In this document: positions 164-19,187 of the stretch, one piece after another
Position numbering within the stretch: the first letter of the stretch is position 1
Layout of the letters: each line of letters begins with the position of its first letter
Source of the DNA: Candidatus Hydrogenedens sp.
GTDB taxonomy: Bacteria; Hydrogenedentota; Hydrogenedentia; Hydrogenedentales; Hydrogenedentaceae
Direction of reading: 5' to 3'
Assembly: GCA_049968235.1 (NCBI GenBank)
Contig: JBMFRC010000032.1
Coordinates: 1 to 24,300, forward strand
Length of the DNA: 24,300 nt
Made by a program: the position numbers and the translations under genes
Notes under the pieces: generated by a model
Seen by the model: only the letters and a program-made list of their open reading frames with translations
Databases searched by the model: none
Told to the model about the DNA's origin: nothing

Positions 164-2263
164 TTATGGTTCAAAACGGTAACTACTTCCTATCCGTTCC
201 ATGATACGATTCCCTACTTCCACAGGGACATCTTCGTATCGTTCAAATTCCATAGCATAATTGGCTCTTCCTTGACTGCATGACCGGAGGTCATTGGCAT
301 AGCCAAAGAGTTCCGCCAGAGGCGCCAGGGCATGTATGATTTGTCTTTGCCCATCTACTTCCATGTTTAACATCCGTCCCCGACGATGGTCTAAATCATT
401 GATAATATCGCCGGTATATTCCGGAGGTGTATCTATCTCTAACCGCATAATAGGTTCGAGTAGAATAGGTCGGGCATTCATAACGGCTTCCTTCACTGCC
501 ATTGATGCGGCAATCTGGAATGCCAAATCCGACGAATCAACTTCATGATAAGAACCAAAGGTAAGTATAATTTTTACATCCACCATCGGATAACCCGCTA
601 CAATTCCTGTTTCGAGGGCTTCTTTACATCCTTTCTCTACAGCAGGAATATAGTTTTTCGGGATAACTCCACCTGTGGTCTTATCCTCAAAAATAAATCC
701 GGAACCTCGTGGTAATGGTTCAAGGGTCAATACGACATGTCCATATTGTCCACGACCACCTGTTTGTCGGACAAATTTTTTGTCCGCCGTAGCAGACTGG
801 CGGATTGTTTCGCGATATGCAACTACAGGCTTTCCTACATGAGCCTCGACACCAAACTCTCGTTTCATACGGTCAATAATAATTTCGAGGTGTAGTTCGC
901 CCATCCCTGCAATAATCGTTTGCCCTGTTTCTTCGTTAACCCGAACACGGAAAGTAGGGTCTTCATCTGCAAAACGATGCAAGGCATTCGACAAACGGTC
1001 CTGGTCTGCTTTTGTCTTTGGTTCAATTGAGATATGAACCACTGGCTCCGGAAAAGTCAGGGGCATAAGTGCAATAGGATGTTTAGGAGCACAGAGTGTA
1101 TCGCCCGTTAGAACACTTTTACAGCCAATCACAGCGCCGATGTCGCCGGTCCTTAATTCTTTAATTTCCGTTCGTTCATCCGCATGGAGTTCTACAATCC
1201 TACCCAGTCGTTCTTTCATTCCGGTTCGTGTATTCATAAGGGTTTGTCCCGTTTCAATCACACCGGAATATACCCGCACAAAGGTTAGTTTGCCTACATG
1301 CGGGTCGCTCAGGATTTTGAACGCCAATGCTGAAAATGGCTCATCATCCGAAGGATGGCGTAGCACTTTTTTGTTGGGGTCTTGGGGTAATGTTCCCTCA
1401 TACGGCGGTAAATCGATTGGAGATGGTAGATAATCTACTACCGCATCCAGAGTTAGCCGTATTCCCTTATTTTTAAGTGCACTACCACATAGTACCGGCG
1501 TACCTATTCGGTTGATACAAAGTCTGCGAATTGCTTTTTTGAGTAAATCTACCGGAATTTCTTTTCCCTCGAGATATAACTCGAGGATATCTTCGTCATG
1601 GTTGGCAACCACTTCGATAAGGTGCATCCTCCAGAAATGAGCATCATCATGATACTCTTCCGGAATTTCTTCCGATACCTGAACACAATCTACAGTTTCT
1701 CCAACCCAGGTAACCATTCTTTGATTGAGCAAATCAATAACTGCTCGGAAATTTTCTTCACTACCGACAGGAATTTGGACAGGAAGTGTTAATGCGTGGA
1801 GGCGATGCTCGATGGATTCTATGGCTTGAAAAAAATTGGCGCCAACCCGGTCCATCTTGTTAATAAAAGCAATTCGCGGAACTTTATATTTTTCCGCCTG
1901 TCTCCACACGGTTTCGGACTGCGGTTGAACGCCTGCAACACCACAAAAAACGATGATGGCTCCATCGAGAACCCTCATACAGCGTTCTACTTCTGCGGTG
2001 AAATCAATGTGACCCGGTGTATCAATGATATTTATCCGATGTCCTTTCCATTCACACGCCGTCGCTGCAGAGGTTATGGTGATACCGCGCTCCCGTTCCT
2101 GCTCCATGTAGTCCATGGTAGCGGCACCGTCATGGACCTCGCCCACGCGGTGCACCCGGCCGGAGTAGTACAAGACGCGTTCAGTAACGGTGGTCTTGCC
2201 GGCATCAATGTGGGCCGCTATTCCTATATTACGGATATTTTCTAACGGGTATTTGCGTGGCAT
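164..2263 (-). CDS. fusA: Translation elongation factor G
   Basis: The track ORF 164..2329 shows EF-G hallmarks (AHIDAGKTT, DTPGHIDF, NKMD and the full domain II-V sequence). The start is trimmed to the ATG at 2263 (MPRKYPLENIRNIGI...), which has a GGAG Shine-Dalgarno 10 nt upstream. The 22 upstream codons in the track have no homology. Confidence 0.95.
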   Translation of the reverse strand: MPRKYPLENIRNIGIAAHIDAGKTTVTERVLYYSGRVHRVGEVHDGAATMDYMEQERERGITITSAATACEWKGHRINIIDTPGHIDFTAEVERCMRVLDGAIIVFCGVAGVQPQSETVWRQAEKYKVPRIAFINKMDRVGANFFQAIESIEHRLHALTLPVQIPVGSEENFRAVIDLLNQRMVTWVGETVDCVQVSEEIPEEYHDDAHFWRMHLIEVVANHDEDILELYLEGKEIPVDLLKKAIRRLCINRIGTPVLCGSALKNKGIRLTLDAVVDYLPSPIDLPPYEGTLPQDPNKKVLRHPSDDEPFSALAFKILSDPHVGKLTFVRVYSGVIETGQTLMNTRTGMKERLGRIVELHADERTEIKELRTGDIGAVIGCKSVLTGDTLCAPKHPIALMPLTFPEPVVHISIEPKTKADQDRLSNALHRFADEDPTFRVRVNEETGQTIIAGMGELHLEIIIDRMKREFGVEAHVGKPVVAYRETIRQSATADKKFVRQTGGRGQYGHVVLTLEPLPRGSGFIFEDKTTGGVIPKNYIPAVEKGCKEALETGIVAGYPMVDVKIILTFGSYHEVDSSDLAFQIAASMAVKEAVMNARPILLEPIMRLEIDTPPEYTGDIINDLDHRRGRMLNMEVDGQRQIIHALAPLAELFGYANDLRSCSQGRANYAMEFERYEDVPVEVGNRIMERIGSSYRFEP

Positions 2264-2470
2264 AGTATTTCTGCTCCTCAGCATCCTTTGCTCCGCTATA
2301 CCCGGGGCCCTGGCACATGCTGTATTCAATTGTCAAGTATGATTTCCTGTCTATTTATAGCAGGACAATCGGTTATTTATTCCTACAGCTGTGCAACGCC
2401 CCGATAATACGGAGCGTATTGCTCAGCCTGTTGTTCTTATTCTCCTATGTTCTTCTTTAGAACTCATATA

Positions 2471-2944
2471 TTAATATCGGAAATGGATAAACGCCTTGTT
2501 AGCTTCTGCCATTCGGTGTGTATCCTCGCGTTTCTTTATTGTATTTCCCTGTTTGTTATAACAATCCATCAACTCCGCCGCTAACCGTTCTTCCATGGTC
2601 TTCTCACCACGGTTTCTTGCATAACTCCGAATCCAGCGAAAAGCAATTGATGTTCGTGTATTCGGTTCTATTTCCACTGGAACTTGATAGGTAGCACCAC
2701 CAATACGGCGTGATTTTACATGCACCAACGGTTTTGCGTTTTCGACTGCCGCCGTAAAAACTTCCAGGGGGTCTTTGTCCGGAACTTTCTTTTTTAATAT
2801 CTCTAATGCGTTATATACAATCTTTTCTGCCACACTCTTTTTGCCGTTTGTCATAACAATATTTATAAACTTTGCTACCAGAACACTATTATACTTTGGG
2901 TCGGGCAAAACTTCTCTTTTTTGCACTTCTCTTCTTCTTGGCAT
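2471..2944 (-). CDS. rpsG: 30S ribosomal protein S7 (uS7)
   Basis: [20 protein letters not shown]... at 157 aa is a typical uS7 sequence and length, sitting between rpsL and fusA. Confidence 0.95.
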
Positions 2945-2960
2945 CGCTTATCCTTCGTAA

Positions 2961-3386
2961 CTATGATTGTTTCGGTTTCTTTACACCATATTTGGAACGG
3001 CTTACCCAACGACCGGCATGCACTTTCTTCCCGCCTTCATCTTTAACACTGGCGGTTCCACCCATATCACCCATAGCATCTAAAACACCACGGATTAGAT
3101 GGTAACGGACACCCGGAAGGTCTTTTACACGACCACCACGAACCAATACTTGTGAGTGTTCCTGTAAATTATGACCTACACCCGGTATATAAACCGTTAC
3201 TTCATATCCGTTCTTTAGACGAACACGAGCCACTTTACGCAAAGCGGAATTGGGTTTCTTCGGCGTCATGGTATATACACGAGTGCATGTTCCCGAGGCT
3301 TGCGGACATGCTTTCAATGCCGGAGCTTTTGTCCGATTGGGTCTCGGTTTACGAGCACCTTTTAATAATTGACCTATCGTTGGCAA
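2961..3386 (-). CDS. rpsL: 30S ribosomal protein S12 (uS12), with a C-terminal insertion of about 17 aa
   Basis: [15 protein letters not shown]...[12 protein letters not shown]...GHNLQEHS...[14 protein letters not shown] is unmistakably S12. It is 141 aa versus about 124 aa in the E. coli and Bacillus forms. The extra residues ([21 protein letters not shown]) lie between the LDxxG motif and the SRSKYG tail. Confidence 0.95.
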
Positions 3387-3501: not shown

Positions 3502-3600
3502 ATTACTTATCCGTCTTTTTACTCACTTTCTTGGGTCGTGTCTTTCCATAAGAGCCACGCCAGATTTTACCGCGTTTTGTTCTACGGTCTCCTTTACCCA
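3502..3600 (-). CDS. 30S ribosomal protein bTHX (Thx / PSRP4 family), 32 aa, not in the ORF track
   Basis: Reverse complement of 3502..3600 reads ATG GGT AAA GGA GAC CGT AGA ACA AAA CGC GGT AAA ATC TGG CGT GGC..., giving [32 protein letters not shown]. This matches the Thermus Thx signature [25 protein letters not shown] nearly residue for residue. An AGGA sits about 14 nt upstream. It lies directly upstream of rpsL on the same strand. Confidence 0.8.
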
Positions 3601-3663
3601 TAAATATATATTTAATCCTTTGTTAAATTAGATAAAAAATTTTCGTTAGGGATAAAATGAAAA

Positions 3664-3710: not shown

Positions 3711-5393
3711 TTAGAAATTCAAATTCTTTTTTAATTCCTGAATTTTGCGAATCTGCTCTTTTACTTCTTTGATGAGTTTTTCATATTCTACAAACGGATT
3801 CATAATATCCGGCAGGCAATCGATAAACTGTTTCATCATTTTTTTTCGCACACCTCTTGCACTAATATATACAACCTTATCATATATCCAGAAACTAACC
3901 CATATACTAATTAAAAATACAATACAAGAATGAATAATAAAATTTGCTCCTTGATAATAACCCAGGAAATAGCCCGGAATAATTTGCCAGAAAAAATATA
4001 CCAATACCGTATACATAGGTACATAAAACAATTCCACTAAAAAATAGTTTGACAGACACCTTGCCTTCTTTACGAGATAAGAATCCACTCGCTCTTTCAA
4101 GAAATCAACTCCACTCTTGAAAAAATTTGATACAAAATTTTCAGATATAGATGGAACAGCATCTTTGCGAATCTGGGCTTTATCGAGAGCAAAGGCAAGG
4201 TCATATTGAACATTTTCTAATTCACGATTACATTTGTTTGATATTTGCATTGCTATTTCATGAACAATCTCATTAATTTTCCTTTCAAAATAAGTCATCT
4301 CTTCTTTATGGGGTTGAACCATCTCTCTTACAATGTTCCATGGACGGATTACTTTAGAAAGGGTTCTCAAAACACCGGATAAACGATTCCGTATCTGTGC
4401 AAGTAATAAAAAAATACCATGTAATTCAAATGCAATTTCATCCTTCAACAGATGGTAGAAGGTCCCTGCCTCCTTTCCAAACTCTGTCCGAATGATTCGT
4501 GCCTGTTGTTTTACTAATTCTACTTTTTTCCTATCTATAAATTCTTTCATTTCATTGACTGCAGGCTCCGTTTCCTGCAAAAAATCATCTATTCTCGCTA
4601 TCATCTTTCCTATCAACCCATGAACATTTGCCGTTTTTATCTGACGGATTTTTGTATCGGTAAGTTGTTGGGCAAGGAAATTTTCTAACTTTGTAAAATC
4701 AAATTCATTTGTTTCCGTATCCTCCGATTTTGTTCCTAATTTCCTATTCAATGCACGAAGTGCATTTATACAAAAATAAGCAAGCGGTTCTATCCCATCC
4801 AATCTTAATCTCTTTAACCAGTCATCCATGATAGATGGAATTTCTGATGTCATCTTTGTTTCCACCAGAACAAAACCCCGTTCTTTACTCACTTCACGAA
4901 TGATACTCCATGTTGCTTCTTCAAGGTATTTATCTCCATTGCCACAAAGCAGGATAAGGTCACATTTTTCTATCATCTTCTTTGTAAAATTGCGATGCTC
5001 CTTAATAACAGTATCGGTATCAGGGGTATCAATAAGAACAATATTATCGAGAGCGGAGCGGGCATATAATTCGCATTCTCCCTTCAATTCCGAATACGGT
5101 TCCCAATCCGGAGGATAATAGATAATAGGTCTATTTGTGCAGGGTCTCATTTCTGATGTCCTTGCAATTTTATCGCCAGCAATAGCATTAATCAGTGTTG
5201 ATTTACCTACCCCTGAACCGCCTACAATTGCAACGATTAATAGAGCATCAATTTTACTACTTCTTTCTTTTATTTCTTTAATACCCCCTTTTAACTTCTC
5301 CGCTATCGGTAAGAAACCTTCCCAATTCCCTTTATAATCCGCTATCTCTTCCAATTGATGGATAATTTTTTCTAAGTTTGCTTTAGGGAACAT
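3711..5393 (-). CDS. Bacterial dynamin-like GTPase B (Dynamin_N-type G domain plus helical stalk plus C-terminal two-helix membrane hairpin)
   Basis: G1 is GGSGVGKST and G3 is DTPD. The G4-equivalent is TKMT (aligned to NKVD in the upstream paralogue). A long helical region follows, then two hydrophobic helices (LVELFYVPMYTVLVYFFWQII... and FIIHSCIVFLISIWVSFWIY) near the C-terminus. The GAGGAG Shine-Dalgarno overlaps the stop of the upstream GTPase, with a 12-nt gap. Confidence 0.8.
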   Translation of the reverse strand: MFPKANLEKIIHQLEEIADYKGNWEGFLPIAEKLKGGIKEIKERSSKIDALLIVAIVGGSGVGKSTLINAIAGDKIARTSEMRPCTNRPIIYYPPDWEPYSELKGECELYARSALDNIVLIDTPDTDTVIKEHRNFTKKMIEKCDLILLCGNGDKYLEEATWSIIREVSKERGFVLVETKMTSEIPSIMDDWLKRLRLDGIEPLAYFCINALRALNRKLGTKSEDTETNEFDFTKLENFLAQQLTDTKIRQIKTANVHGLIGKMIARIDDFLQETEPAVNEMKEFIDRKKVELVKQQARIIRTEFGKEAGTFYHLLKDEIAFELHGIFLLLAQIRNRLSGVLRTLSKVIRPWNIVREMVQPHKEEMTYFERKINEIVHEIAMQISNKCNRELENVQYDLAFALDKAQIRKDAVPSISENFVSNFFKSGVDFLKERVDSYLVKKARCLSNYFLVELFYVPMYTVLVYFFWQIIPGYFLGYYQGANFIIHSCIVFLISIWVSFWIYDKVVYISARGVRKKMMKQFIDCLPDIMNPFVEYEKLIKEVKEQIRKIQELKKNLNF

Positions 5394-5405
5394 CGTTCTC
5401 TCCTC

Positions 5406-7229
5406 TTATGATTTTTGCTCTTCTATAATCTCATTGTTCTGTAGGCTATCTATTTGCAATTGCTCTATATTTCCCTCTTGCGAAATAAATCCCCCATTAA
5501 AAATATTCCGAACTTCTTTATCAAATTCCTCTGCAAAACTTATATATTTATATATATCCTGTAAAACATACTGTAGAACTTCTTCCTTTAATATCTGCTG
5601 AAGTTCTCCCTGTTTCTCTATTATCCATTTTTCATAAAGTGAATTTATGCTCTTCTGGAATCTTTTATATTCAACAGTTTCAATAAATGCCGAACCTCCA
5701 AGCATTCCTCCTCCAGCTATTATTTCCGCCCAGGGTCCAACATATGGCATTCCCCAAAACATGGAAATCATACCCGCACCCAAAAGCAGAAAAGACATAA
5801 TTCGCTTGCCATAAAAGCCATTCAAATTCGGAGAATCTAAAAAATCGGCGACAATCTTTTCAATTTCTTTTTGTATCCATTCAGGTTTTACAGAGAGCGC
5901 GTTTTCCATTCGTGTAATGATTTTCATTTTTACTACATCTCGATTGTTATGTAATTCATGCAATCGTTTATTTATATTTTCATCTATGTAATCAATATCG
6001 GAACTAAATTCTAATTTCAGCAACCAATCCAAGAGTTCATTAAAACATTTTTCTATCATTTCATTATGTTTTTGTTTTATCTCTACTTCTGCCCCTTCTG
6101 TGCTTATTTCCAACTTCTTGATTTCACTTCGATATCCGGAAAAAATAGAGGTGGGGAATAAAATCAAGTATGTAAAATAACCAATATGTTTCCTTAACTC
6201 GTATTTAATTTCTTCTACTAACCGAATCCAGCGGAATGGGATAAACTCCCTACTGATAATGGTATTTTCCAGATAATCTTCACAGAATCTTACCTTTGAT
6301 AGGGAAATATCTAAAAGTTTTAAAAATTTATTCTTATACCATTGTCCAAATTTTTCTTGAAAACTACTTATGGTTTTTTCTAAGATTTTTACTTTTGTTT
6401 CCTGCACAGGGAAAGAATAAATATACTCCCTTAATTCGGGAGCAACTTCTGTCAGCGGTTTAATAGGAGCATTTAAATAATTTTCATTGTAAGGATATTT
6501 AGGAAAGTAAAAACGGGGCAGATTATCATCCATTCCTACTTTTTTCATAAATTCTCTTATCTGTTTGTCTGCAATTTGAAGTGCTTTGGGATTATCAATA
6601 TCAACCTTGTTCATCACAGGAATCACGATCTTCCCTTCTTCATAAGCATGTCGGAAAAATTTGATTACCGCATCATCCATATACTTAGAATCATTTGTAA
6701 CCGCAATAATAATATCCCCAGCGGATACAATTTTATCTGCTATCTCCCAATGTTCCTTCGCAATAGAATCAATATCCGGAGTATCTAAATACAAATAAGT
6801 ATTGGGGATAGATTTTTCTTCCTTAACTAAAAGAATATGATTCGGGAGGGAATCGCTAATTGCCTCTTCTTTACTTTTCATCTCTCTCGCTTCAAATTCA
6901 AGAAACATATTGTTATCCAAACATTGTTTCGCCTTCTGTTCAGAGGCAATAATAACAGGTCTTTTGGTCGCCGCAGCATAAGGGTCTGTTGCAGTTAATT
7001 CTTGCTTCATTAAAACATTTAATATAGTGGACTTCCCTGTATTGGTTCCTCCGGCTACAGCAACAATAAGGCATCCTTCCCTTTCTAAATGAGGAACAAG
7101 TTTCCCCAAAAATAATTTCTCCCACGCAGACAAATCTTCCCCGTTTAATACATTTAAATCCAATTCCATTATCTTATTCTTAAACCGCTTCCATACATCA
7201 GCAAACAGGTCTATCCAATTACTTTCCAT
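5406..7229 (-). CDS. Bacterial dynamin-like GTPase A (Dynamin_N-type G domain plus helical stalk plus membrane hairpin)
   Basis: G1 is GGTNTGKST, G3 is DTPD and G4 is NKVD, with dynamin-like spacing. At 607 aa it has a helical middle region and a hydrophobic paddle (IMSFLLLGAGMISMFWGMPYVGPWAEIIAGGGMLGG). An AGAGGGAG Shine-Dalgarno lies 5 nt upstream of the ATG at 7229. Confidence 0.8.
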   Translation of the reverse strand: MESNWIDLFADVWKRFKNKIMELDLNVLNGEDLSAWEKLFLGKLVPHLEREGCLIVAVAGGTNTGKSTILNVLMKQELTATDPYAAATKRPVIIASEQKAKQCLDNNMFLEFEAREMKSKEEAISDSLPNHILLVKEEKSIPNTYLYLDTPDIDSIAKEHWEIADKIVSAGDIIIAVTNDSKYMDDAVIKFFRHAYEEGKIVIPVMNKVDIDNPKALQIADKQIREFMKKVGMDDNLPRFYFPKYPYNENYLNAPIKPLTEVAPELREYIYSFPVQETKVKILEKTISSFQEKFGQWYKNKFLKLLDISLSKVRFCEDYLENTIISREFIPFRWIRLVEEIKYELRKHIGYFTYLILFPTSIFSGYRSEIKKLEISTEGAEVEIKQKHNEMIEKCFNELLDWLLKLEFSSDIDYIDENINKRLHELHNNRDVVKMKIITRMENALSVKPEWIQKEIEKIVADFLDSPNLNGFYGKRIMSFLLLGAGMISMFWGMPYVGPWAEIIAGGGMLGGSAFIETVEYKRFQKSINSLYEKWIIEKQGELQQILKEEVLQYVLQDIYKYISFAEEFDKEVRNIFNGGFISQEGNIEQLQIDSLQNNEIIEEQKS

Positions 7230-7293: not shown

Positions 7294-7944
7294 TCACACG
7301 TTCAATTTAGGGCAGGAAGCCCTTAACATTTTAATTACGAATTCATTGATTTGTTTTTCATCTTCGGGGTCCATCCCCACAAATTTAAGGCTTACTTTAT
7401 TTTCCTTCCCTGTAAATAACACGTGCGTTACTGAACCTAATAAGTGAAACCATTGTTCTTTCCCTGTAACAAAATGCCTCAGTGAAAAGAATACCTCTAC
7501 ACTTTCTCCTACTTCCAGAGGTTCTTCAATGCTAATTAACATTCCTCCCGCGCTAATATTATGAACAATCGCTCTAATCTTTCGTGGGTGAGCATGAGGC
7601 TTTATCTCCGCAGGTAAGTTAATGGGCATCCTCCAGAACTGACGCAGAAATATACTTGATAAACTTTCTGGAATAGATATAACAATTCCTTCTTCTGCGG
7701 AGTCAGAAACCTCAATAATTTCTGTCTGCAAAACAAGGCAACCCCGATTGCTACACAATTCAAGTGCTACCTGCATCCCTGAGAAAAGTTCATTGGAAAA
7801 TTTCGTCTGTGATATACGGATATAGCCCCGAGTAACGGAAATAATCGTTACAGGACATAACTTCCCTTCAAAACTCAATACACCGATTGTTCCTGTTTTC
7901 AATGTTTCCTGAAGAATCTGTTCTATCTCTTTTTTTCTGTCCAT
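7294..7944 (-). CDS. PilZ-domain c-di-GMP receptor (YcgR-like architecture: PilZN-type N-domain plus PilZ)
   Basis: The C-terminal half carries both PilZ motifs, RQFWR (RxxxR) followed about 25 aa later by NISAGG ((D/N)xSxGG). The protein is 216 aa. A 64-nt gap separates it from the first dynamin-like gene on the same strand. Confidence 0.7.
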   Translation of the reverse strand: MDRKKEIEQILQETLKTGTIGVLSFEGKLCPVTIISVTRGYIRISQTKFSNELFSGMQVALELCSNRGCLVLQTEIIEVSDSAEEGIVISIPESLSSIFLRQFWRMPINLPAEIKPHAHPRKIRAIVHNISAGGMLISIEEPLEVGESVEVFFSLRHFVTGKEQWFHLLGSVTHVLFTGKENKVSLKFVGMDPEDEKQINEFVIKMLRASCPKLNV

Positions 7945-8047: not shown

Positions 8048-10681
8048 ATGTTAAAAAATAACAAAAAAGGAATATTTTTTTTGTCGCTATCAATGCTTAG
8101 CACAGGAATACCTGAATTTGACCGAATATTAAGAGGGCTAATTGCTGGAGATAATGTTGTTTTTCGAGGAAGTTCTATTGTAGATTACCGTAAGTTTGTA
8201 ATACCTTTTGTGCAACATGGACATGAAACAGCCCGTCCTGTCGTATATTTTAGATACGGGAAACATCAACCTTTATTAAAAGAATCTGAAGTATCTACAT
8301 ACGCAAATGTGGACCCGAATGAAGGATTTGAACCTTTCATCAGTCAGTTGCATCAGGTTATAAAAAATACAGAACGTCGTGCTTTTTATGTTTTTGACCG
8401 ATTATCAGACCTTTCCCTCACCTGGTTCAGTGATACAATGCTTTGTAATTTCTTTATGCTAACCTGCCCCTATTTATTTGACCGTGGCGATTTAGCATAT
8501 TTTTTCCTCGACCGTTCCCAACATACACCTGAATCCGTTACACCTATACAACAGACCGCACAAATCGTCATTGAATTGTATGACCACAATGATGACCTGT
8601 TTATTCGTCCCGTAAAGGTTCAACAGAGGCACTCCCCTTCCATGCATATGTTACATCTATGGCAAGATGGGAAAATGACCCCTATTACAGAAAGCCATAT
8701 TATGGCAAAGGTATTATCATCTATCCTCAGCACGACTCTTAGCCCGGGAGAAGGACCCACAGATATATGGAACCGTATTTTAGGAGAAGCCAAGTATGTT
8801 ATCCGTTTAGGGGACGAAAAGATTAAACAAGAACTGATGGAAATTCTCATCAAAATGATGATAACACGGGAAAAACGAATGACCGAACTATTCCTTCAAA
8901 ATTTCTCTTTAGAAGACCTTGTAGAAATAGGTAGGCGTGTTATTGGCACAGGAATGATAGGCGGAAAATCTGTAGGTATGTTACTGGCACAGGCAATATT
9001 ACGAAAAAGCAATCCCAAATGGAACCAAAAGTTAGAAAAACATGATAGTTTTTATGTTGGGTCCGATGTATATTATACCTTTCTCGTTCGTAACGGTTGT
9101 TGGTGGGCACGAGAACAACAAAAAGAGTTGGAAAGTTTTCTTCCCGGAGCAGAACGCATCCGCAGACGTATCATTACTGGGGAATTTCCCGAAGATATTG
9201 AAATGAAGTTTGAACAGATGCTTGAATATTTTGGTTCTTCACCTATCATTGTTCGTTCCAGCAGTTTATTGGAAGATAATTTCGGAAATTCCTTTGCCGG
9301 AAAATATGAAAGTGTATTTTGTGCCAATCAAGGTTCTACAAGGCAAAGACTGGAAGATTTCAAAGCGGCTGTTCGCACGGTATATGCCAGTACTGTAAGC
9401 GAAGAAGCGTTATATTATCGGAAACGGCGGGGACTTTTGGACAAAGATGAACAAATGGCTCTTTTAGTCCAACGCGTATCCGGATCCCAGCATGCACGAC
9501 TATATTTCCCGAATATTGCAGGGGTAGGTTTCTCATACAATCCCTATGTCTGGTCTGCGGAAATTGACCCTAAGGCAGGAATGTTACGTTTAGTATTTGG
9601 ATTGGGCACACGAGCGGTTGACCGTTCGGATGACGATTACACGAGAATCGTTGCTCTCAATGAACCTCTATTGCGGCCCGAAGGCTCTACCAAAGAACAG
9701 AAAAAATACTCCCAACAAAAAGTAGATGTTATTGATTTAGACGGGAACCGACTCGTTTCCATGCCCGTGCAGGAAATTGTTCCTCAATGTGAAGGGATTC
9801 CCTTAGAACTTTTTGTATCTCAGGATGTGGAAGCAGAACGATTCTATAAAGAACGCGGACAAAAAATGCCTCCTCAATGGAAAATCCGTTTTGATTCTCT
9901 CCTTACCGAAACCTCATTTGTAGAAGATATGCATGAGATTCTCATTACACTGGATAGGACATATCAGAACCCTGTAGATGTAGAATTTACCGCAAATTTT
10001 AAGAATAATAAAGATTTCTATATAGATATTGTTCAATGCAGACCTTTACAGGTCAGTGACCGTTCGGAACTCCTTTCAGAACCTGTTATTGAGGATAAGA
10101 CCAACCTAATTATTCAAACAGATGGTCCTATTATCGGAAGAAGCCGTTCTAATCAGGTACATCGAATTATCTATGTTGTCCCTCATACCTATGGAGAATT
10201 GCCAATATCTGAACGTTATGCTATTGCTCGTGCTATCGGCATCTTAAATCAAATACCTCCACTTATTACAGGCGACCCTATTGTGGTTCTTATAGGACCT
10301 GGACGTTGGGGAACCAGCGCACCTTCGTTAGGAGTATCCGTTAGTTTCTCTGAGATTAGTTCGGTCTCCTTCTTGTGTGAAATTGTTGCTATGAGAGAAG
10401 ACCTCACTCCAGATGTATCCTTGGGGACCCATTTTTTTAGCGAATTGGTAGAATCGGATTTGTTGTATTTCGTCCATTTTCCCGCTAAAGAAACTCATTA
10501 TTTCAATGAACAATTATTAACTCAACTGCCCAACAAATTAAAGGAAATATCAGCCGGATTGGAAAAATACGAAAACATTATTAAGGTATATGATTTTCTA
10601 TCTGATTCCGGAAAAACATGCCATATTTACGCAAATACTTTCGACCAGAAGCTGTTTTTATATCTCAATAATGAAGAATAA
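8048..10681 (+). CDS. Large fusion protein: degenerate KaiC/RecA-like N-terminal domain plus PEP-synthase/PPDK-type ATP-grasp nucleotide-binding domain (PPDK_N), with no recognisable phosphohistidine swivel domain
   Basis: The N-terminus reads TGIPEFDRILRGLIAGDNVVFRGSS...VVYFRYG, mimicking the KaiC/RadA TGIPxLDxxLxGG...LYVS layout but without a GxxGxGKT Walker A. Residues around 300-470 carry the PEP-utilising ATP-binding hallmarks GTGMIGGKSVGMLL and IIVRSSSLLEDNFGNSFAGKYESV. No GGRTSHAAI-type motif is present. The start codon is uncertain: there is no Shine-Dalgarno at 8048, and an alternative ATG near 8093 (MLSTGIPEF) exists. Confidence 0.6.
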   Translation: MLKNNKKGIFFLSLSMLSTGIPEFDRILRGLIAGDNVVFRGSSIVDYRKFVIPFVQHGHETARPVVYFRYGKHQPLLKESEVSTYANVDPNEGFEPFISQLHQVIKNTERRAFYVFDRLSDLSLTWFSDTMLCNFFMLTCPYLFDRGDLAYFFLDRSQHTPESVTPIQQTAQIVIELYDHNDDLFIRPVKVQQRHSPSMHMLHLWQDGKMTPITESHIMAKVLSSILSTTLSPGEGPTDIWNRILGEAKYVIRLGDEKIKQELMEILIKMMITREKRMTELFLQNFSLEDLVEIGRRVIGTGMIGGKSVGMLLAQAILRKSNPKWNQKLEKHDSFYVGSDVYYTFLVRNGCWWAREQQKELESFLPGAERIRRRIITGEFPEDIEMKFEQMLEYFGSSPIIVRSSSLLEDNFGNSFAGKYESVFCANQGSTRQRLEDFKAAVRTVYASTVSEEALYYRKRRGLLDKDEQMALLVQRVSGSQHARLYFPNIAGVGFSYNPYVWSAEIDPKAGMLRLVFGLGTRAVDRSDDDYTRIVALNEPLLRPEGSTKEQKKYSQQKVDVIDLDGNRLVSMPVQEIVPQCEGIPLELFVSQDVEAERFYKERGQKMPPQWKIRFDSLLTETSFVEDMHEILITLDRTYQNPVDVEFTANFKNNKDFYIDIVQCRPLQVSDRSELLSEPVIEDKTNLIIQTDGPIIGRSRSNQVHRIIYVVPHTYGELPISERYAIARAIGILNQIPPLITGDPIVVLIGPGRWGTSAPSLGVSVSFSEISSVSFLCEIVAMREDLTPDVSLGTHFFSELVESDLLYFVHFPAKETHYFNEQLLTQLPNKLKEISAGLEKYENIIKVYDFLSDSGKTCHIYANTFDQKLFLYLNNEE

Positions 10682-10699
10682 TATCAATAGAATTATTCG

Positions 10700-11446
10700 C
10701 TAATTGGGCTTGATTTTACCAAGGTCAATAGTAGATGCGGGAGGAATTTTTATTTCTTTGATTTCCAATATCATTCCGCGTTCGGTTTTTAGACGAAGGT
10801 TATACATACCGGCAGGAATAGGTTTGAAATGGATATTGCCTGCTTCATCGGTATGCCCATCACAGGGCCACCAGGGACCCAATTTCGGGTGAAACATCAT
10901 CAAGCCTACATTCTCATTTTTTACAGGCTGGTCATCTTTATCAAACAATTGTAATTCAATAATACTGGCTTCCAGCATCAATACTTGCATATCTTCAAGG
11001 GAATCCGCATCGGTAGGTGGAATCTCAAAATAGTTGTTGGGAAAATAATGAAGGATAGGGTCCCAGGCACGGATAAACACACCTTTGTTCTTAGGAATTT
11101 GAATGGTGCTAATCCCATCGGGACCGCTTAAATTTCCGCGGGCAATAGGTTCATCAAAGGCATTCGGTTTTTCAGTCGCAATACCCGCCATATTTTCCAG
11201 AGGCATACCTGCACTGTTTATAATCATGATTTTCCCGAAAACCCAGGAACTGGAAGCCGATGTATTTGGAACCTGTGTTTGACTTTGTACCACCTCCGTT
11301 TGAGAAGAATTCCCTACGGATGTTTTTTTAGGTTCGGATACTGTCGGCTGAGGTGCAGTATTTTTCTGACTGCACGAATTGAATACCAGAAACAATAAAA
11401 TGAGCCATACATTTATATATTTATTGTGCGGTTGTTTCATAGGCAT
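10700..11446 (-). CDS. Lipoprotein of unknown function (possible carboxypeptidase-regulatory/transthyretin-like fold)
   Basis: It has an N-terminal signal peptide with a lipobox-like LVFNSC and a low-complexity S/T/Q-rich linker. The C-terminal beta-rich segment is GMYNLRLKTERGMILEIKEIK. Its 5' end overlaps the ABC exporter's 3' end by 20-26 nt, indicating co-transcription. The start is ambiguous between 11446 and 11440. Confidence 0.55.
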   Translation of the reverse strand: MPMKQPHNKYINVWLILLFLVFNSCSQKNTAPQPTVSEPKKTSVGNSSQTEVVQSQTQVPNTSASSSWVFGKIMIINSAGMPLENMAGIATEKPNAFDEPIARGNLSGPDGISTIQIPKNKGVFIRAWDPILHYFPNNYFEIPPTDADSLEDMQVLMLEASIIELQLFDKDDQPVKNENVGLMMFHPKLGPWWPCDGHTDEAGNIHFKPIPAGMYNLRLKTERGMILEIKEIKIPPASTIDLGKIKPN

Positions 11447-18428: not shown

Positions 18429-19187
18429 ATGAATTTTCGCAATATGGCAATTTATTCAAGCACTTTTGTAATCTTATTTGCCTTTTTATATGGCTGTGTT
18501 AATGAGGAAAAAATAGAAATTGTTCAAAAAAGAATGGTTTCTTCTACGGAAAAACCAATAATTCCATTACCAGCCCCACAGAGACTACGATTACTACCCA
18601 CAGATTTAGATAATCGGGGACAATTAGATACAGGTTCTCTATCAGGTATTTCCCCTGAAGAAATTACAACAAAAAAAGAAGAACAGGATACAGGGAATTC
18701 CGGAATGAAACCGGATATGCGAAATACATCTCTTGCCGAAGGTGGTTTTGGAAAGTTGGAATTGGAATGGGTAACGCCGGCAGGTTGGCAAGAAGATACA
18801 AACAAGCCTATGCGAGTCGTATCCTTTAATACCGGTGATAATTCCACATGGGAATGCTACATTAGTGTGCTGATGTCGCAAGCAGGTGGAGTAGAAGCCA
18901 ATCTAAAACGCTGGGCAAATCAGATGGGAAAACGAGATATTGATACTCAGACTATCGAACAACTTACGGATGTTACTATTTTGGGGAAACAATGCAAACT
19001 TTTAGATATTACAGGTAATTACGAAGATATGCAGGGGATTACCCATGAGAATTATCGTCTATTAGGTGCTGTTTGCTCACTGGGGAATCAGACCTTGTTT
19101 GTTAAAATGATAGGACCTGAAAAAGAAGTTGCTCTTCAAAAGGATAACTTTATTAAATTATGTAATTCACTTACACTAAAAAATTAA
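18429..19187 (+). CDS. Lipoprotein of unknown function
   Basis: Signal peptide with lipobox LYGC. An AGAAGAGAGG Shine-Dalgarno precedes the ATG at 18429. It has no CxxCH or CxxC motif. It ends 25 nt before ccsB on the same strand. Confidence 0.55.
   Translation: MNFRNMAIYSSTFVILFAFLYGCVNEEKIEIVQKRMVSSTEKPIIPLPAPQRLRLLPTDLDNRGQLDTGSLSGISPEEITTKKEEQDTGNSGMKPDMRNTSLAEGGFGKLELEWVTPAGWQEDTNKPMRVVSFNTGDNSTWECYISVLMSQAGGVEANLKRWANQMGKRDIDTQTIEQLTDVTILGKQCKLLDITGNYEDMQGITHENYRLLGAVCSLGNQTLFVKMIGPEKEVALQKDNFIKLCNSLTLKN

What the first reader, a model, noticed from the sequence alone, without database searches (positions are those of the whole stretch)
3711..7229. Non-canonical G motifs in both dynamin-like GTPases (G3 DTPD; G4 TKMT in the second)
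Both paralogues carry DTPD where dynamin-superfamily G3 is DxxG (LDTPDIDS and IDTPDTDT). The glycine that contacts the gamma-phosphate is replaced by Asp in both. In the downstream paralogue, the position aligned to the upstream NKVD (G4) reads TKMT, losing the Asp that confers guanine specificity. This pairing of one conventional and one specificity-relaxed G domain with a shared unusual G3 suggests altered nucleotide specificity or a regulatory pseudo-GTPase partner.
Basis: seen in the sequence. Interest (0 to 1): 0.5.

Follow-up and report, generated by a model that had tools for sequence, protein, structure and literature searches.

The report
DynA/DynB-type dynamin pair, Asp-for-Gly G3
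Two adjacent genes encode a membrane-remodelling dynamin-like protein pair whose odd nucleotide-binding motifs are real, but they are the conserved signature of a large bacterial family that includes the studied Streptomyces cell-division proteins DynA and DynB.

Summary
ORF A (5406..7229, minus strand, 607 aa) reads GGTNTGKS / DTPDIDS / NKVD. ORF B (3711..5393, minus strand, 560 aa) reads GGSGVGKS / DTPDTDT / TKMT. Profile alignment to E. coli CrfC places the second Asp of DTPD on the Gly of DTPG, and TKMT/NKVD on NKFD. Neither G domain contains another DxxG.

Both predicted structures best match Fzo1, mitofusin, BDLP, Cj-DLP1/2, IniA and SynDLP.

The motif is not a local oddity. D-x-P-D-x-D-[ST] is invariant in 110/110 B-type and 74/74 A-type homologues. 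It is also present in both genes of 78 tandem pairs from four phyla. The actinobacterial pairs are Streptomyces dynA/dynB, as shown by exact matches to published primers.

G4 varies by lineage:
- Desulfobacterota: canonical in both subunits.
- Actinomycetota: lost in DynA, NQxD in DynB.
- This window: NKVD in A, TKMT in B.

B keeps an invariant P-loop, switch-I Thr and Mg-binding Asp, so it is not a decayed pseudo-GTPase. Altered base specificity remains possible but untested.

Verdict: a new, distant (Hydrogenedentota) member of a known kind. The family-wide loss of the G3 glycine is the point worth a biochemical test.

The parts
5406..7229 (-). ORF A, 607 aa: first subunit, DynA-like dynamin-like protein (G domain plus helical stalk; weakly hydrophobic Gly-rich tip around aa 477-520)
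3711..5393 (-). ORF B, 560 aa: second subunit, a dynamin-like protein with a C-terminal hydrophobic hairpin (architecture like DynB)
7029..7052 (-). A G1/P-loop, GGTNTGKS (aa 60-67)
   Evidence: G60, T62, G65 and K66 are invariant in 74/74.
6966..6968 (-). A G2 switch-I Thr88 (AAATKRP)
   Evidence: Invariant in 74/74. Aligned to RPMT of CrfC.
6765..6785 (-). A non-canonical G3/switch II, DTPDIDS (aa 149-155); D152 replaces the canonical Gly
   Evidence: D149, P151, D152 and D154 are invariant in 74/74, and S155 is kept in 72/74. Aligned to DTPG of CrfC.
6675..6686 (-). A conserved K-Y-x-D motif (aa 182-185) in the loop after beta4
   Evidence: Y183 and D185 are invariant, and K/R182 is 74/74. 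The Tyr is invariant across four phyla. Its function is inferred only.
6600..6611 (-). A G4, NKVD (aa 207-210); canonical here
   Evidence: N207 is kept in 73/74, but the Asp in only 16/74 and strict [NT]KxD in 9/74.
5394..5405 (-). 12-nt A-B spacer with a GAGGAG ribosome-binding site; the two genes are probably co-transcribed
   Evidence: Sequence TAAGAGGAGAGAACGATG. In relatives the A stop and B start overlap (L001, L002, L084).
5199..5222 (-). B G1/P-loop, GGSGVGKS (aa 58-65)
   Evidence: G58, G61, V62, G63, K64 and S65 are invariant in 110/110.
5136..5138 (-). B G2 switch-I Thr86 (within RPCT; R83 invariant)
   Evidence: T in 106/110 (S in 4), R83 in 110/110. Resembles NPCT of BDLP in the HMMER alignment.
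5010..5030 (-). B non-canonical G3/switch II, DTPDTDT (aa 122-128); D125 replaces the canonical Gly
   Evidence: D122, P124 and D125 are kept in 110/110 and D127 in 109/110. Aligned to DLPG of IRGB10 and to DTPG of CrfC.
4923..4931 (-). B conserved K-Y-L (aa 155-157), part of the [KR]-Y-x-[DE] motif after beta4
   Evidence: K155 in 104/110 and Y156 in 108/110.
4848..4859 (-). B degenerate G4, TKMT (aa 179-182); the specificity Asp is replaced by Thr
   Evidence: Family pattern is [TN]-[KR]-x-x with Asp in only 23/110. Aligned to TKID of IRGB10 and NKFD of CrfC.
3864..4046 (-). B hydrophobic helical hairpin (aa ~450-510), a likely membrane anchor or paddle
   Evidence: Kyte-Doolittle peaks at 450-469 and 481-510 (maximum 2.25). 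AF2 helices 450-477 and 482-525. Streptomyces DynB is reported to have two transmembrane segments (PMC8748795).

Best explanation
The locus encodes a co-transcribed heterotypic bacterial dynamin-like protein (DLP) pair of the DynA/DynB type. The first subunit, A, is largely cytoplasmic. The second, B, is anchored by a C-terminal hydrophobic hairpin.

Both subunits keep the phosphate- and Mg-binding core: the P-loop GxxxxGKS, the switch-I Thr and the G3 Asp. Switch II, however, is the clade-defining D-x-P-D-x-D-[ST] rather than DxxG, and G4 changes readily between lineages. The unusual motifs are therefore an ancient, selected feature of a large family. They are not decay of one partner.

Inferred mechanism:
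- Nucleotide binding to both P-loops drives association of the A and B G domains at the membrane, as P-loop mutants indicate for Streptomyces DynAB.
- The backbone NH of the Asp that replaces Gly can still sense the gamma-phosphate.
- The two extra carboxylates, and the invariant [KR]-Y-x-D loop after beta4, take part in cation or water positioning or in G-G interface contacts. That loop lies where dynamin has its trans-stabilising loop; I place it there from remembered dynamin sequence, not from an alignment run here.
- Base recognition is canonical in some lineages and relaxed in others. In this window A (NKVD) is probably guanine-specific, and B (TKMT) is less specific or reads the base in another way.

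Shown: identity, fold, motif positions, conservation, operon structure, and kinship with Streptomyces dynAB. Inferred: everything about catalysis, specificity and cellular role.
For: - Motifs and coordinates.
- Dynamin_N hits.
- Confident AF2 models with a G domain plus long helical stalk.
- Best structural matches are all fusion-type DLPs (Fzo1, MFN1/2, BDLP, Cj-DLP1/2, IniA, SynDLP, OPA1).
- Full-length G-domain profile hits to IniA (1e-9), MFN2 (1.2e-9) and Cj-DLP1 (4e-8).
- hhalign to E. coli CrfC places D-x-P-D on DTPG and G4 on NKFD.
- Invariance of G1, the G2 Thr and D-x-P-D-x-D in 110 B-type and 74 A-type homologues.
- Both genes of 78 tandem pairs from Hydrogenedentota, Planctomycetota, Desulfobacterota and Actinomycetota carry the motif.
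- 135 of 138 scorable top cluster representatives carry it, and none has Gly.
- The A-then-B gene order is conserved.
- The actinobacterial pairs are dynA/dynB. Published S. coelicolor and S. venezuelae primers match the loci exactly at the gene start and end. The K74A and K129A primers encode STGAG(K)STLVN and AGATGSG(K)STLFN.
- Streptomyces P-loop mutants of both subunits impair function.
- Desulfobacterota pairs combine DxPDxDS with canonical NK[AV]D in both subunits, so the Asp-for-Gly change coexists with a canonical guanine-reading G4.
Against: - No biochemical data for any member were accessible. The 2017 Streptomyces paper is not held, and the 2025 preprint only infers GTP hydrolysis by analogy.
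- Replacing the G3 glycine is expected, from Ras, G-alpha and EF-Tu mutagenesis (my own knowledge), to cripple the GTP-driven switch. Normal turnover therefore cannot be assumed.
- One-to-one orthology of B with DynB is not shown: B scores 77 bits against the DynA HMM and 54 against the DynB HMM.
- The proposed roles of the carboxylates and of the KY-x-D loop rest on position alone. No model coordinates or complex prediction were available.
Confidence: 0.72

Rival explanations
1. Altered nucleotide specificity. Subunits lacking the G4 Asp (B here, DynA in Actinomycetota, most A-type proteins with NKAN) would use ATP or any NTP rather than GTP. The pair would then be a mixed GTPase/ATPase or a general NTPase machine.
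For: - The G4 Asp is absent in 87/110 B-type and 58/74 A-type homologues.
- Actinobacterial DynA reads DRVP, with no N, K or D.
- From my own knowledge, YchF/OLA1 has NxxE in place of NKxD and prefers ATP.
Against: - From my own knowledge, EHD keeps NKxD yet binds ATP, so G4 sequence is a poor predictor of specificity in either direction.
- Desulfobacterota members keep NKxD in both subunits and DynB keeps NQxD plus an SALTGEG-like G5, so guanine reading is the likely ancestral state.
- No binding data exist.
Confidence: 0.3
2. Pseudo-GTPase partner. B would be a catalytically dead, possibly nucleotide-free regulatory subunit that only scaffolds or regulates A.
For: In this window B lacks both the G3 Gly and the G4 Asp. 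Heterodimers of an active and an inactive P-loop protein are known in other families (my own knowledge).
Against: - B's P-loop (G58, G61, V62, G63, K64, S65), R83, T86 (106/110), D122, P124 and D125 are invariant or nearly so across homologues down to about 17% identity. That is the pattern of a site under functional constraint, not a relaxed one.
- A carries the same G3 change, so the G3 variant does not single out B.
- In Streptomyces, the P-loop Lys of both DynA and DynB affects function.
Confidence: 0.08
3. Nucleotide-binding but hydrolysis-poor switch. The whole DxPD clade would bind GTP stably and use binding rather than turnover to control A-B assembly, like the RGK small GTPases whose G3 is DxWE.
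For: - The G3 Gly is universally absent.
- The only functional data accessible concern binding-site (P-loop) mutants, not hydrolysis.
- The RGK precedent of a non-DxxG G3 comes from my own knowledge.
Against: - The switch-I Thr and the Mg-coordinating Asp, both needed mainly for catalysis-competent geometry, stay invariant.
- Three conserved acidic or hydroxyl residues in switch II look like a rebuilt active site rather than a lost one.
- Other paired bacterial DLPs hydrolyse GTP (cited).
Confidence: 0.25
4. Mis-assigned motifs. The true G3 and G4 would lie elsewhere and be canonical.
For: None found.
Against: - A contains no DxxG at all. B has only DYKG at aa 19, before the P-loop, kept in 13/110 homologues.
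- Three independent alignments (CrfC, IRGB10, Der) and the predicted strand order all place DTPD at G3.
Confidence: 0.01

Closest known systems
Streptomyces DynA/DynB (S. venezuelae vnz_12105 = DynB; Schlimpert et al. 2017; bioRxiv 10.1101/2025.06.23.661029; PMC8748795)
   Same: - A tandem first-then-second gene pair.
- Both subunits carry D-x-P-D-x-D-S in place of DxxG, plus the [KR]-Y-x-D motif.
- The second subunit has two C-terminal hydrophobic or transmembrane segments.
- A is specifically DynA-like: blastp 2e-20, and 99.8 versus 63.9 bits against the two HMMs.
   Different: - Identity is only about 26-28%, and confined to the G domain.
- B is not clearly orthologous to DynB.
- The G4 asymmetry is reversed: DynA DRVP / DynB NQxD, against A NKVD / B TKMT here.
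- The phylum differs (Hydrogenedentota).
- No SepX, SsgB or FtsZ context is visible in the window.
- The preprint describes DynAB as conserved in filamentous actinobacteria.
Campylobacter jejuni DLP1/DLP2 and Nostoc BDLP1 (PDB 5owv, 5oxf, 2j68/2j69)
   Same: Best or near-best fold matches for both models. They share the G domain, helical neck/trunk and membrane-binding tip. Cj-DLP1/2 is also an operon-encoded heterotypic pair.
   Different: The related DLPs that could be aligned residue by residue here (CrfC DTPG/NKFD) have canonical G3 and G4. Sequence identity to these structures is 12-16%.
Mitofusin / Fzo1 (PDB 6jfk, 5goe, 9kfd)
   Different: They are eukaryotic, with canonical DxxG and N-x-x-D G4 (my own knowledge: MFN1 DSPG / NRWD). 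They have heptad-repeat domains, and no paired operon.
E. coli CrfC / YjdA (now annotated RdcA)
   Same: A bacterial DLP. hhalign gives probability 96.6% over the whole G domain, with G1 to G4 in register.
   Different: Canonical DTPG and NKFD. It has a large insertion between G2 and G3. Its partner gene is the unrelated rdcB rather than a second DLP.
GTPases with non-canonical G3 or G4 (RGK family DxWE; YchF/OLA1 NxxE; EHD ATPases). All from my own knowledge.
   Same: They are precedents that a G-fold protein can lose the G3 Gly or the G4 Asp and still bind nucleotide, sometimes with changed specificity.
   Different: They are unrelated subfamilies, and none has D-x-P-D-x-D-[ST]. They are analogies, not relatives.

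Membership tests
Dynamin superfamily / bacterial dynamin-like proteins | Large G domain recognised by the Dynamin_N profile, with G1 GxxxxGK[ST] | tested here: met
   PF00350 at 43.6 bits (A) and 45.9 bits (B), against a cut-off of 27. P-loops GGTNTGKS and GGSGVGKS are invariant in homologues.
Dynamin superfamily / bacterial dynamin-like proteins | G2 switch-I threonine | tested here: met
   A T88 in 74/74; B T86 in 106/110. Aligned to RPMT of CrfC.
Dynamin superfamily / bacterial dynamin-like proteins | G3 DxxG (Gly amide contacts the gamma-phosphate) | tested here: not met
   DTPD in both. The Asp aligns on the Gly of DTPG (CrfC), DLPG (IRGB10) and DTGG (Der). The same holds for every family member examined. 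The Mg-binding first Asp is kept.
Dynamin superfamily / bacterial dynamin-like proteins | G4 [NT]KxD | tested here: inconclusive
   Met in A (NKVD) and not met in B (TKMT). Across the family it is kept in a minority only.
Dynamin superfamily / bacterial dynamin-like proteins | Helical neck/stalk bundle after the G domain, a membrane-binding tip, and overall fold similarity to solved DLPs | tested here: met
Dynamin superfamily / bacterial dynamin-like proteins | GTP binding and hydrolysis, nucleotide-dependent G-domain dimerisation, membrane binding and remodelling | not testable with these tools
   Requires biochemistry.
DynA/DynB-type DLP pair (Streptomyces) | Two DLP genes in tandem on one strand, closely spaced or overlapping | tested here: met
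   12-nt spacer with a ribosome-binding site. The same order is seen in L001-L005, L084, L085 and 67 actinobacterial loci. Streptomyces dynA stop and dynB start overlap as GTGA.
DynA/DynB-type DLP pair (Streptomyces) | Shared sequence signature D-x-P-D-x-D-[ST] plus [KR]-Y-x-D in both subunits (a signature defined in this analysis, not in the literature) | tested here: met
   The Streptomyces loci were identified as dynAB by exact primer matches.
DynA/DynB-type DLP pair (Streptomyces) | Second subunit anchored by two transmembrane segments; first subunit without them | tested here: met
   B has hydrophobic peaks at 450-469 and 481-510. A has only one marginal peak (1.58). The DynB transmembrane statement is in PMC8748795.
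DynA/DynB-type DLP pair (Streptomyces) | One-to-one orthology of each subunit | tested here: inconclusive
   A is clearly DynA-like (99.8 versus 63.9 bits). B scores higher against the DynA HMM than the DynB HMM (77 versus 54 bits). No phylogeny was made.
DynA/DynB-type DLP pair (Streptomyces) | Role at the divisome (FtsZ-ring stabilisation; interaction with SepX and SsgB) | not testable with these tools
   No division genes are in the window. The neighbours are a PilZ gene and the rpsL-rpsG-fusA operon.
Pseudo-GTPase (nucleotide-free or catalytically dead G domain) | Loss or relaxed conservation of phosphate- and Mg-binding residues (P-loop Lys/Ser, switch-I Thr, G3 Asp) | tested here: not met
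   All are present and invariant or nearly invariant in B and in A.
EHD-type ATPase | Dynamin-like G domain plus a C-terminal EH domain; ATP-specific pocket | tested here: not met
   No EH domain or any further Pfam domain. The EHD4 similarity covers the G domain only. Pocket specificity is not testable.

The most novel reading that the evidence does not exclude
The D-x-P-D-x-D-[ST] switch II, together with the invariant [KR]-Y-x-D loop, would define a mechanistically distinct branch of the dynamin superfamily that includes Streptomyces DynAB. In this branch the universally conserved G3 glycine has been traded for a carboxylate-based active site, for example a second cation or direct water activation, possibly completed in trans within the A-B G-domain heterodimer. 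Base specificity is asymmetric between the two subunits. On this reading the 'dynamin-like GTPase' label for the whole clade is only partly correct.
Probability: 0.3. Interest if true: 0.65.

Novelty: new member of a known kind. Interest (0 to 1): 0.45.

Why it matters
The G3 glycine is one of the most conserved residues in the GTPase fold. Here a clade of more than a thousand 50%-identity clusters across at least four phyla lacks it in both subunits of an operon-encoded pair. One member pair, Streptomyces DynAB, already has genetics and cell biology.

This gives a concrete, cheap test of whether these proteins really hydrolyse GTP and how: D-to-G and D-to-A/N mutants, and GTP versus ATP assays on DynAB or on this pair.

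It also extends DynAB-type pairs well beyond the filamentous actinobacteria to which the 2025 preprint ties them, into Hydrogenedentota, Planctomycetota and Desulfobacterota. This bears on the claim that DynAB is an adaptation to multicellular development.

For genome annotation, D-x-P-D-x-D-[ST] is a simple diagnostic for this DLP subfamily. Its members are currently named 'GTPase', '50S ribosome-binding GTPase', 'GTPase Era' or 'EcfA2'.

Tried and rejected
- A full-text search for 'DTPD' with 'GTPase' found nothing relevant. A broader motif query was swamped by G-quadruplex papers. I therefore cannot say whether the Asp-for-Gly G3 has been remarked on in print.
- The key Streptomyces paper (Schlimpert 2017; DOI and PMC5544309) is not held.
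- Single-sequence phmmer against PDB gave only P-loop-level hits to Era, EngA and LepA. Family profiles and hhalign were needed.
- NCBIfam has no specific model for either protein, or for Streptomyces DynA/DynB. There were only sub-threshold Era, Der and CrfC P-loop hits.
- The afdb50 fold library was unavailable.
- Classifying B as a DynB orthologue with HMMs was ambiguous, so I do not claim it.
- PilZ as a conserved third operon member was rejected. It is present in a 54%-identity relative but absent at 38% identity and beyond.
- The alternative that the true G3/G4 lie elsewhere was rejected.
- My first crude A/B typing by P-loop regex mislabelled some second-gene proteins. I redid the count by gene order and phylum.

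Full report
**What is in the sequence.**
The finding's coordinates enclose two minus-strand ORFs.
- A: 5406..7229, 607 aa.
- B: 3711..5393, 560 aa.
- They are separated by 12 nt carrying a GAGGAG ribosome-binding site.

- A: GGTNTGKS (7029..7052), YLDTPDIDS (6765..6791), NKVD (6600..6611).
- B: GGSGVGKS (5199..5222), LIDTPDTDT (5010..5036), TKMT (4848..4859).

Both proteins pass Pfam's Dynamin_N threshold and also hit MMR_HSR1. The contig is from a Candidatus Hydrogenedens MAG: P0001 is 100% identical to B.

**Are DTPD and TKMT really G3 and G4?**
Yes. I built a G-domain profile from 17 sequences of four phyla (A3) and compared it by hhalign with E. coli CrfC/YjdA, an accepted bacterial dynamin-like protein fetched from MG1655. 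The result was probability 96.6% and E 6.8e-10, with all four motifs in register:

| Motif | This family | CrfC |
|---|---|---|
| G1 | GgTGtGKST | GTMKAGKST |
| G2 | RPtT | RPMT |
| G3 | LlD-PD-DS | LLDTPGPNE |
| G4 | Vlnkvd | VNKFD |

HMMER alignments independently place the motif on DLPG of IRGB10, with VETK-x on VRTKID, and on DTGG of Der. A contains no DxxG anywhere. B has only DYKG at residue 19, before the P-loop, kept in 13/110 homologues.

**What the proteins are.**
The AF2 models are confident: B has pLDDT 87.9 and A has 84.3. Each is a G domain followed by a long helical stalk.
- Foldseek, A: best hits are BDLP 2j69 and the C. jejuni DLP1/2 pair 5owv, followed by Drp1, SynDLP, OPA1, Fzo1 and IniA.
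- The B family profile hits BDLP 2j68 at E 7e-10 across stalk and paddle.
- The G-domain profile aligns end to end with IniA, MFN1/2, Cj-DLP1 and Fzo1.
- B has a strongly hydrophobic helical hairpin at about aa 450-510. A has only a marginal hydrophobic, Gly-rich, low-confidence tip.

**Conservation.**
Among 110 B-type and 74 A-type homologues:
- The P-loop, the switch-I Thr (74/74 in A, 106/110 in B) and D-x-P-D-x-D are invariant or nearly so.
- Asp at the Gly position is present in 110/110 and 74/74.
- A further motif, [KR]-Y-x-[DE] after beta4, is almost invariant. Its Tyr is invariant across phyla.
- G4 is not conserved. The Asp is kept in 23/110 B-type and 16/74 A-type proteins, and strict [NT]KxD in 9/74 A-type.

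An exhaustive profile search found 1,109 50%-identity clusters at E<=1e-30 and 6,821 at E<=0.001. Of the best 146 listed that were new to the session, 138 had a locatable motif. Of those, 135 have Asp, none has Gly, and the other three are regex mis-hits.

**The pair is old and widespread, and includes Streptomyces DynA/DynB.**
The A-then-B order, often with overlapping stop and start, recurs in several groups:
- distant Hydrogenedentota (L001, L002, L004);
- Pirellulales and other Planctomycetota (L003, L005, L007, L008);
- Desulfobacterota (L059, L068);
- 67 actinobacterial genomes, including many Streptomyces.

The Streptomyces loci are dynA/dynB, on the evidence of primers listed in Table S2 of bioRxiv 10.1101/2025.06.23.661029:
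- The S. coelicolor dynA start primer (GTGGTGACCTTGGACGTACGG) and the dynA 3'-end primer match many loci exactly, at the predicted start and end of the first gene.
- The S. venezuelae start primer matches L077 and L082 exactly.
- With that start, the P-loop Lys is residue 74.
- The K74A and K129A primers encode STGAG(K)STLVNSLVG and IAIAGATGSG(K)STLFNALAG, which are the two P-loops seen in the loci.

Streptomyces DynA therefore carries LLDAPDIDS, and DynB carries L[VI]DLPDHDS.

Window A is specifically DynA-like: blastp 2e-20, and 99.8 versus 63.9 bits against the actinobacterial first- and second-gene HMMs. B matches both about equally. I therefore claim family membership and shared architecture, not one-to-one orthology, for B.

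**G4 by lineage (78 pairs).**

| Phylum | First gene | Second gene |
|---|---|---|
| Desulfobacterota | NK[AV]D | NK[AV]D |
| Actinomycetota | [DSN]RV[PQ] | NQxD, with an SALTGEG-like G5 |
| Planctomycetota | N[MF]V[DN] | [ST][HQ]A[STV] |
| Hydrogenedentota | NK[AV][NDK] | [TS]K[AV][EDS] |

The Asp-for-Gly G3 coexists with fully canonical G4 in Desulfobacterota. It is therefore not tied to loss of guanine reading. G4 erosion is secondary and lineage-specific, and it is often asymmetric between the two subunits, but which subunit erodes varies.

**How it most likely works.**

Shown:
- two co-oriented, closely spaced DLP genes;
- intact phosphate- and Mg-binding residues in both;
- a rebuilt, acidic switch II under absolute conservation;
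- a membrane hairpin in B.

From the literature on the Streptomyces members:
- DynB is membrane-anchored by two transmembrane segments and partners with DynA (PMC8748795).
- P-loop Lys-to-Ala changes in either subunit compromise function at native expression, and the double mutant loses activity.
- GTP hydrolysis itself is only inferred there, by analogy.

Inferred:
- NTP binding to both subunits drives G-domain-mediated association of A and B on the membrane.
- The main-chain NH at the Asp can still contact the gamma-phosphate.
- The carboxylates at +3 and +5, and the K-Y-x-D loop, contribute to cation or water positioning or to trans contacts. From my recollection of the dynamin-1 sequence, that loop lies where dynamin has its trans-stabilising loop; no alignment to dynamin was run.
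- In this window A is probably guanine-specific and B less so.

**Rivals.**
- A decayed pseudo-GTPase B is unlikely. Its catalytic-core residues are invariant across homologues down to about 17% identity, and A shares the same G3.
- Altered or relaxed base specificity for the subunit without the G4 Asp is plausible but untested. G4 sequence is a weak predictor, since EHD keeps NKxD yet uses ATP and YchF with NxxE prefers ATP (both from my own knowledge).
- A clade-wide 'binding without much hydrolysis' switch, as in RGK GTPases with DxWE (my own knowledge), cannot be excluded.
- Mis-assigned motifs are excluded.

**Comparison with the known, and novelty.**
The locus is a new and distant member, in a new phylum, of a known kind: operon-paired bacterial DLPs, and specifically the DynA/DynB-type clade.

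Within what I could search, I did not find two things described in the literature. One is that this clade, DynAB included, universally replaces the G3 glycine. The other is that it has an unstable G4. The central 2017 paper was not readable, so this is stated with caution. The 2025 preprint ties DynAB to filamentous actinobacteria. The present data show pairs with the same signature in Hydrogenedentota, Planctomycetota and Desulfobacterota.

**Context in the window.**
- Downstream on the same strand lie a 32-aa Thx-like ORF (3503..3601), rpsL, rpsG and fusA. This synteny holds in relatives of 54% and 38% identity.
- Upstream lies a PilZ-domain gene (7294..7944). It is conserved only in the closer relative.
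- The window contains no cell-division genes.

**Scores.**
Interest is 0.45. The locus itself is nonetheless an ordinary member of an existing family.

Noticed in passing
window 3503..3601 (-): A 32-aa ORF ([32 protein letters not shown]) lies between B and rpsL and looks like ribosomal protein Thx. A 38%-identity relative (L085) has a called 40-aa gene with Pfam Thx (PF17070) in the same position. It is too short to appear in the ORF lists used.
   Followed up: partly
window 164..3386 (-) and L084, L085: The DLP pair sits directly upstream of rpsL-rpsG-fusA on the same strand. This synteny is kept in Hydrogenedens-clade relatives of 54% and 38% identity, but not in more distant Hydrogenedentota (L001, L002). 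Whether the pair is co-transcribed with the str operon is unknown. The B-rpsL spacer of about 320 nt contains the Thx-like ORF.
   Followed up: partly
window 7294..7944 (-): A PilZ-domain (c-di-GMP receptor type) protein is encoded 64 nt upstream of A on the same strand. It is conserved, together with the divergent PPDK_N gene, in the 54%-identity relative L084 but not in L085 or beyond. E. coli's DLP YjdA/CrfC is now annotated rdcA, 'regulator of diguanylate cyclase'. That is a loose parallel between DLPs and c-di-GMP signalling, and it was not tested.
   Followed up: partly
window 8048..10681 (+): An 877-aa protein has a PPDK_N (PEP/pyruvate-binding, ATP-grasp) domain at aa 303-674. Its roughly 300-aa N-terminal region has no Pfam match. 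It is divergently oriented to the PilZ gene.
   Followed up: no
L046 3764..7276 and P0293, P0298, P0317 (1072-1343 aa): Some family members may be fusions. In an actinobacterial MAG one open frame carries both P-loop/DxPD sets, and several cluster representatives are about twice the normal length. This recalls the two-headed B. subtilis DynA. In high-GC genomes stop-to-stop frames can mislead, so this is unverified.
   Followed up: no
L059 and L068 (Desulfobacterota MAGs): These pairs combine the DxPDxDS G3 with fully canonical NK[AV]D in both subunits. That makes them the best candidates for testing whether Asp-for-Gly alone affects GTPase chemistry.
   Followed up: partly
window 10700..11446 (-) and 18429..19187 (+): Two ORFs of 248 and 252 aa have no Pfam match at E<=1e-5.
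   Followed up: no
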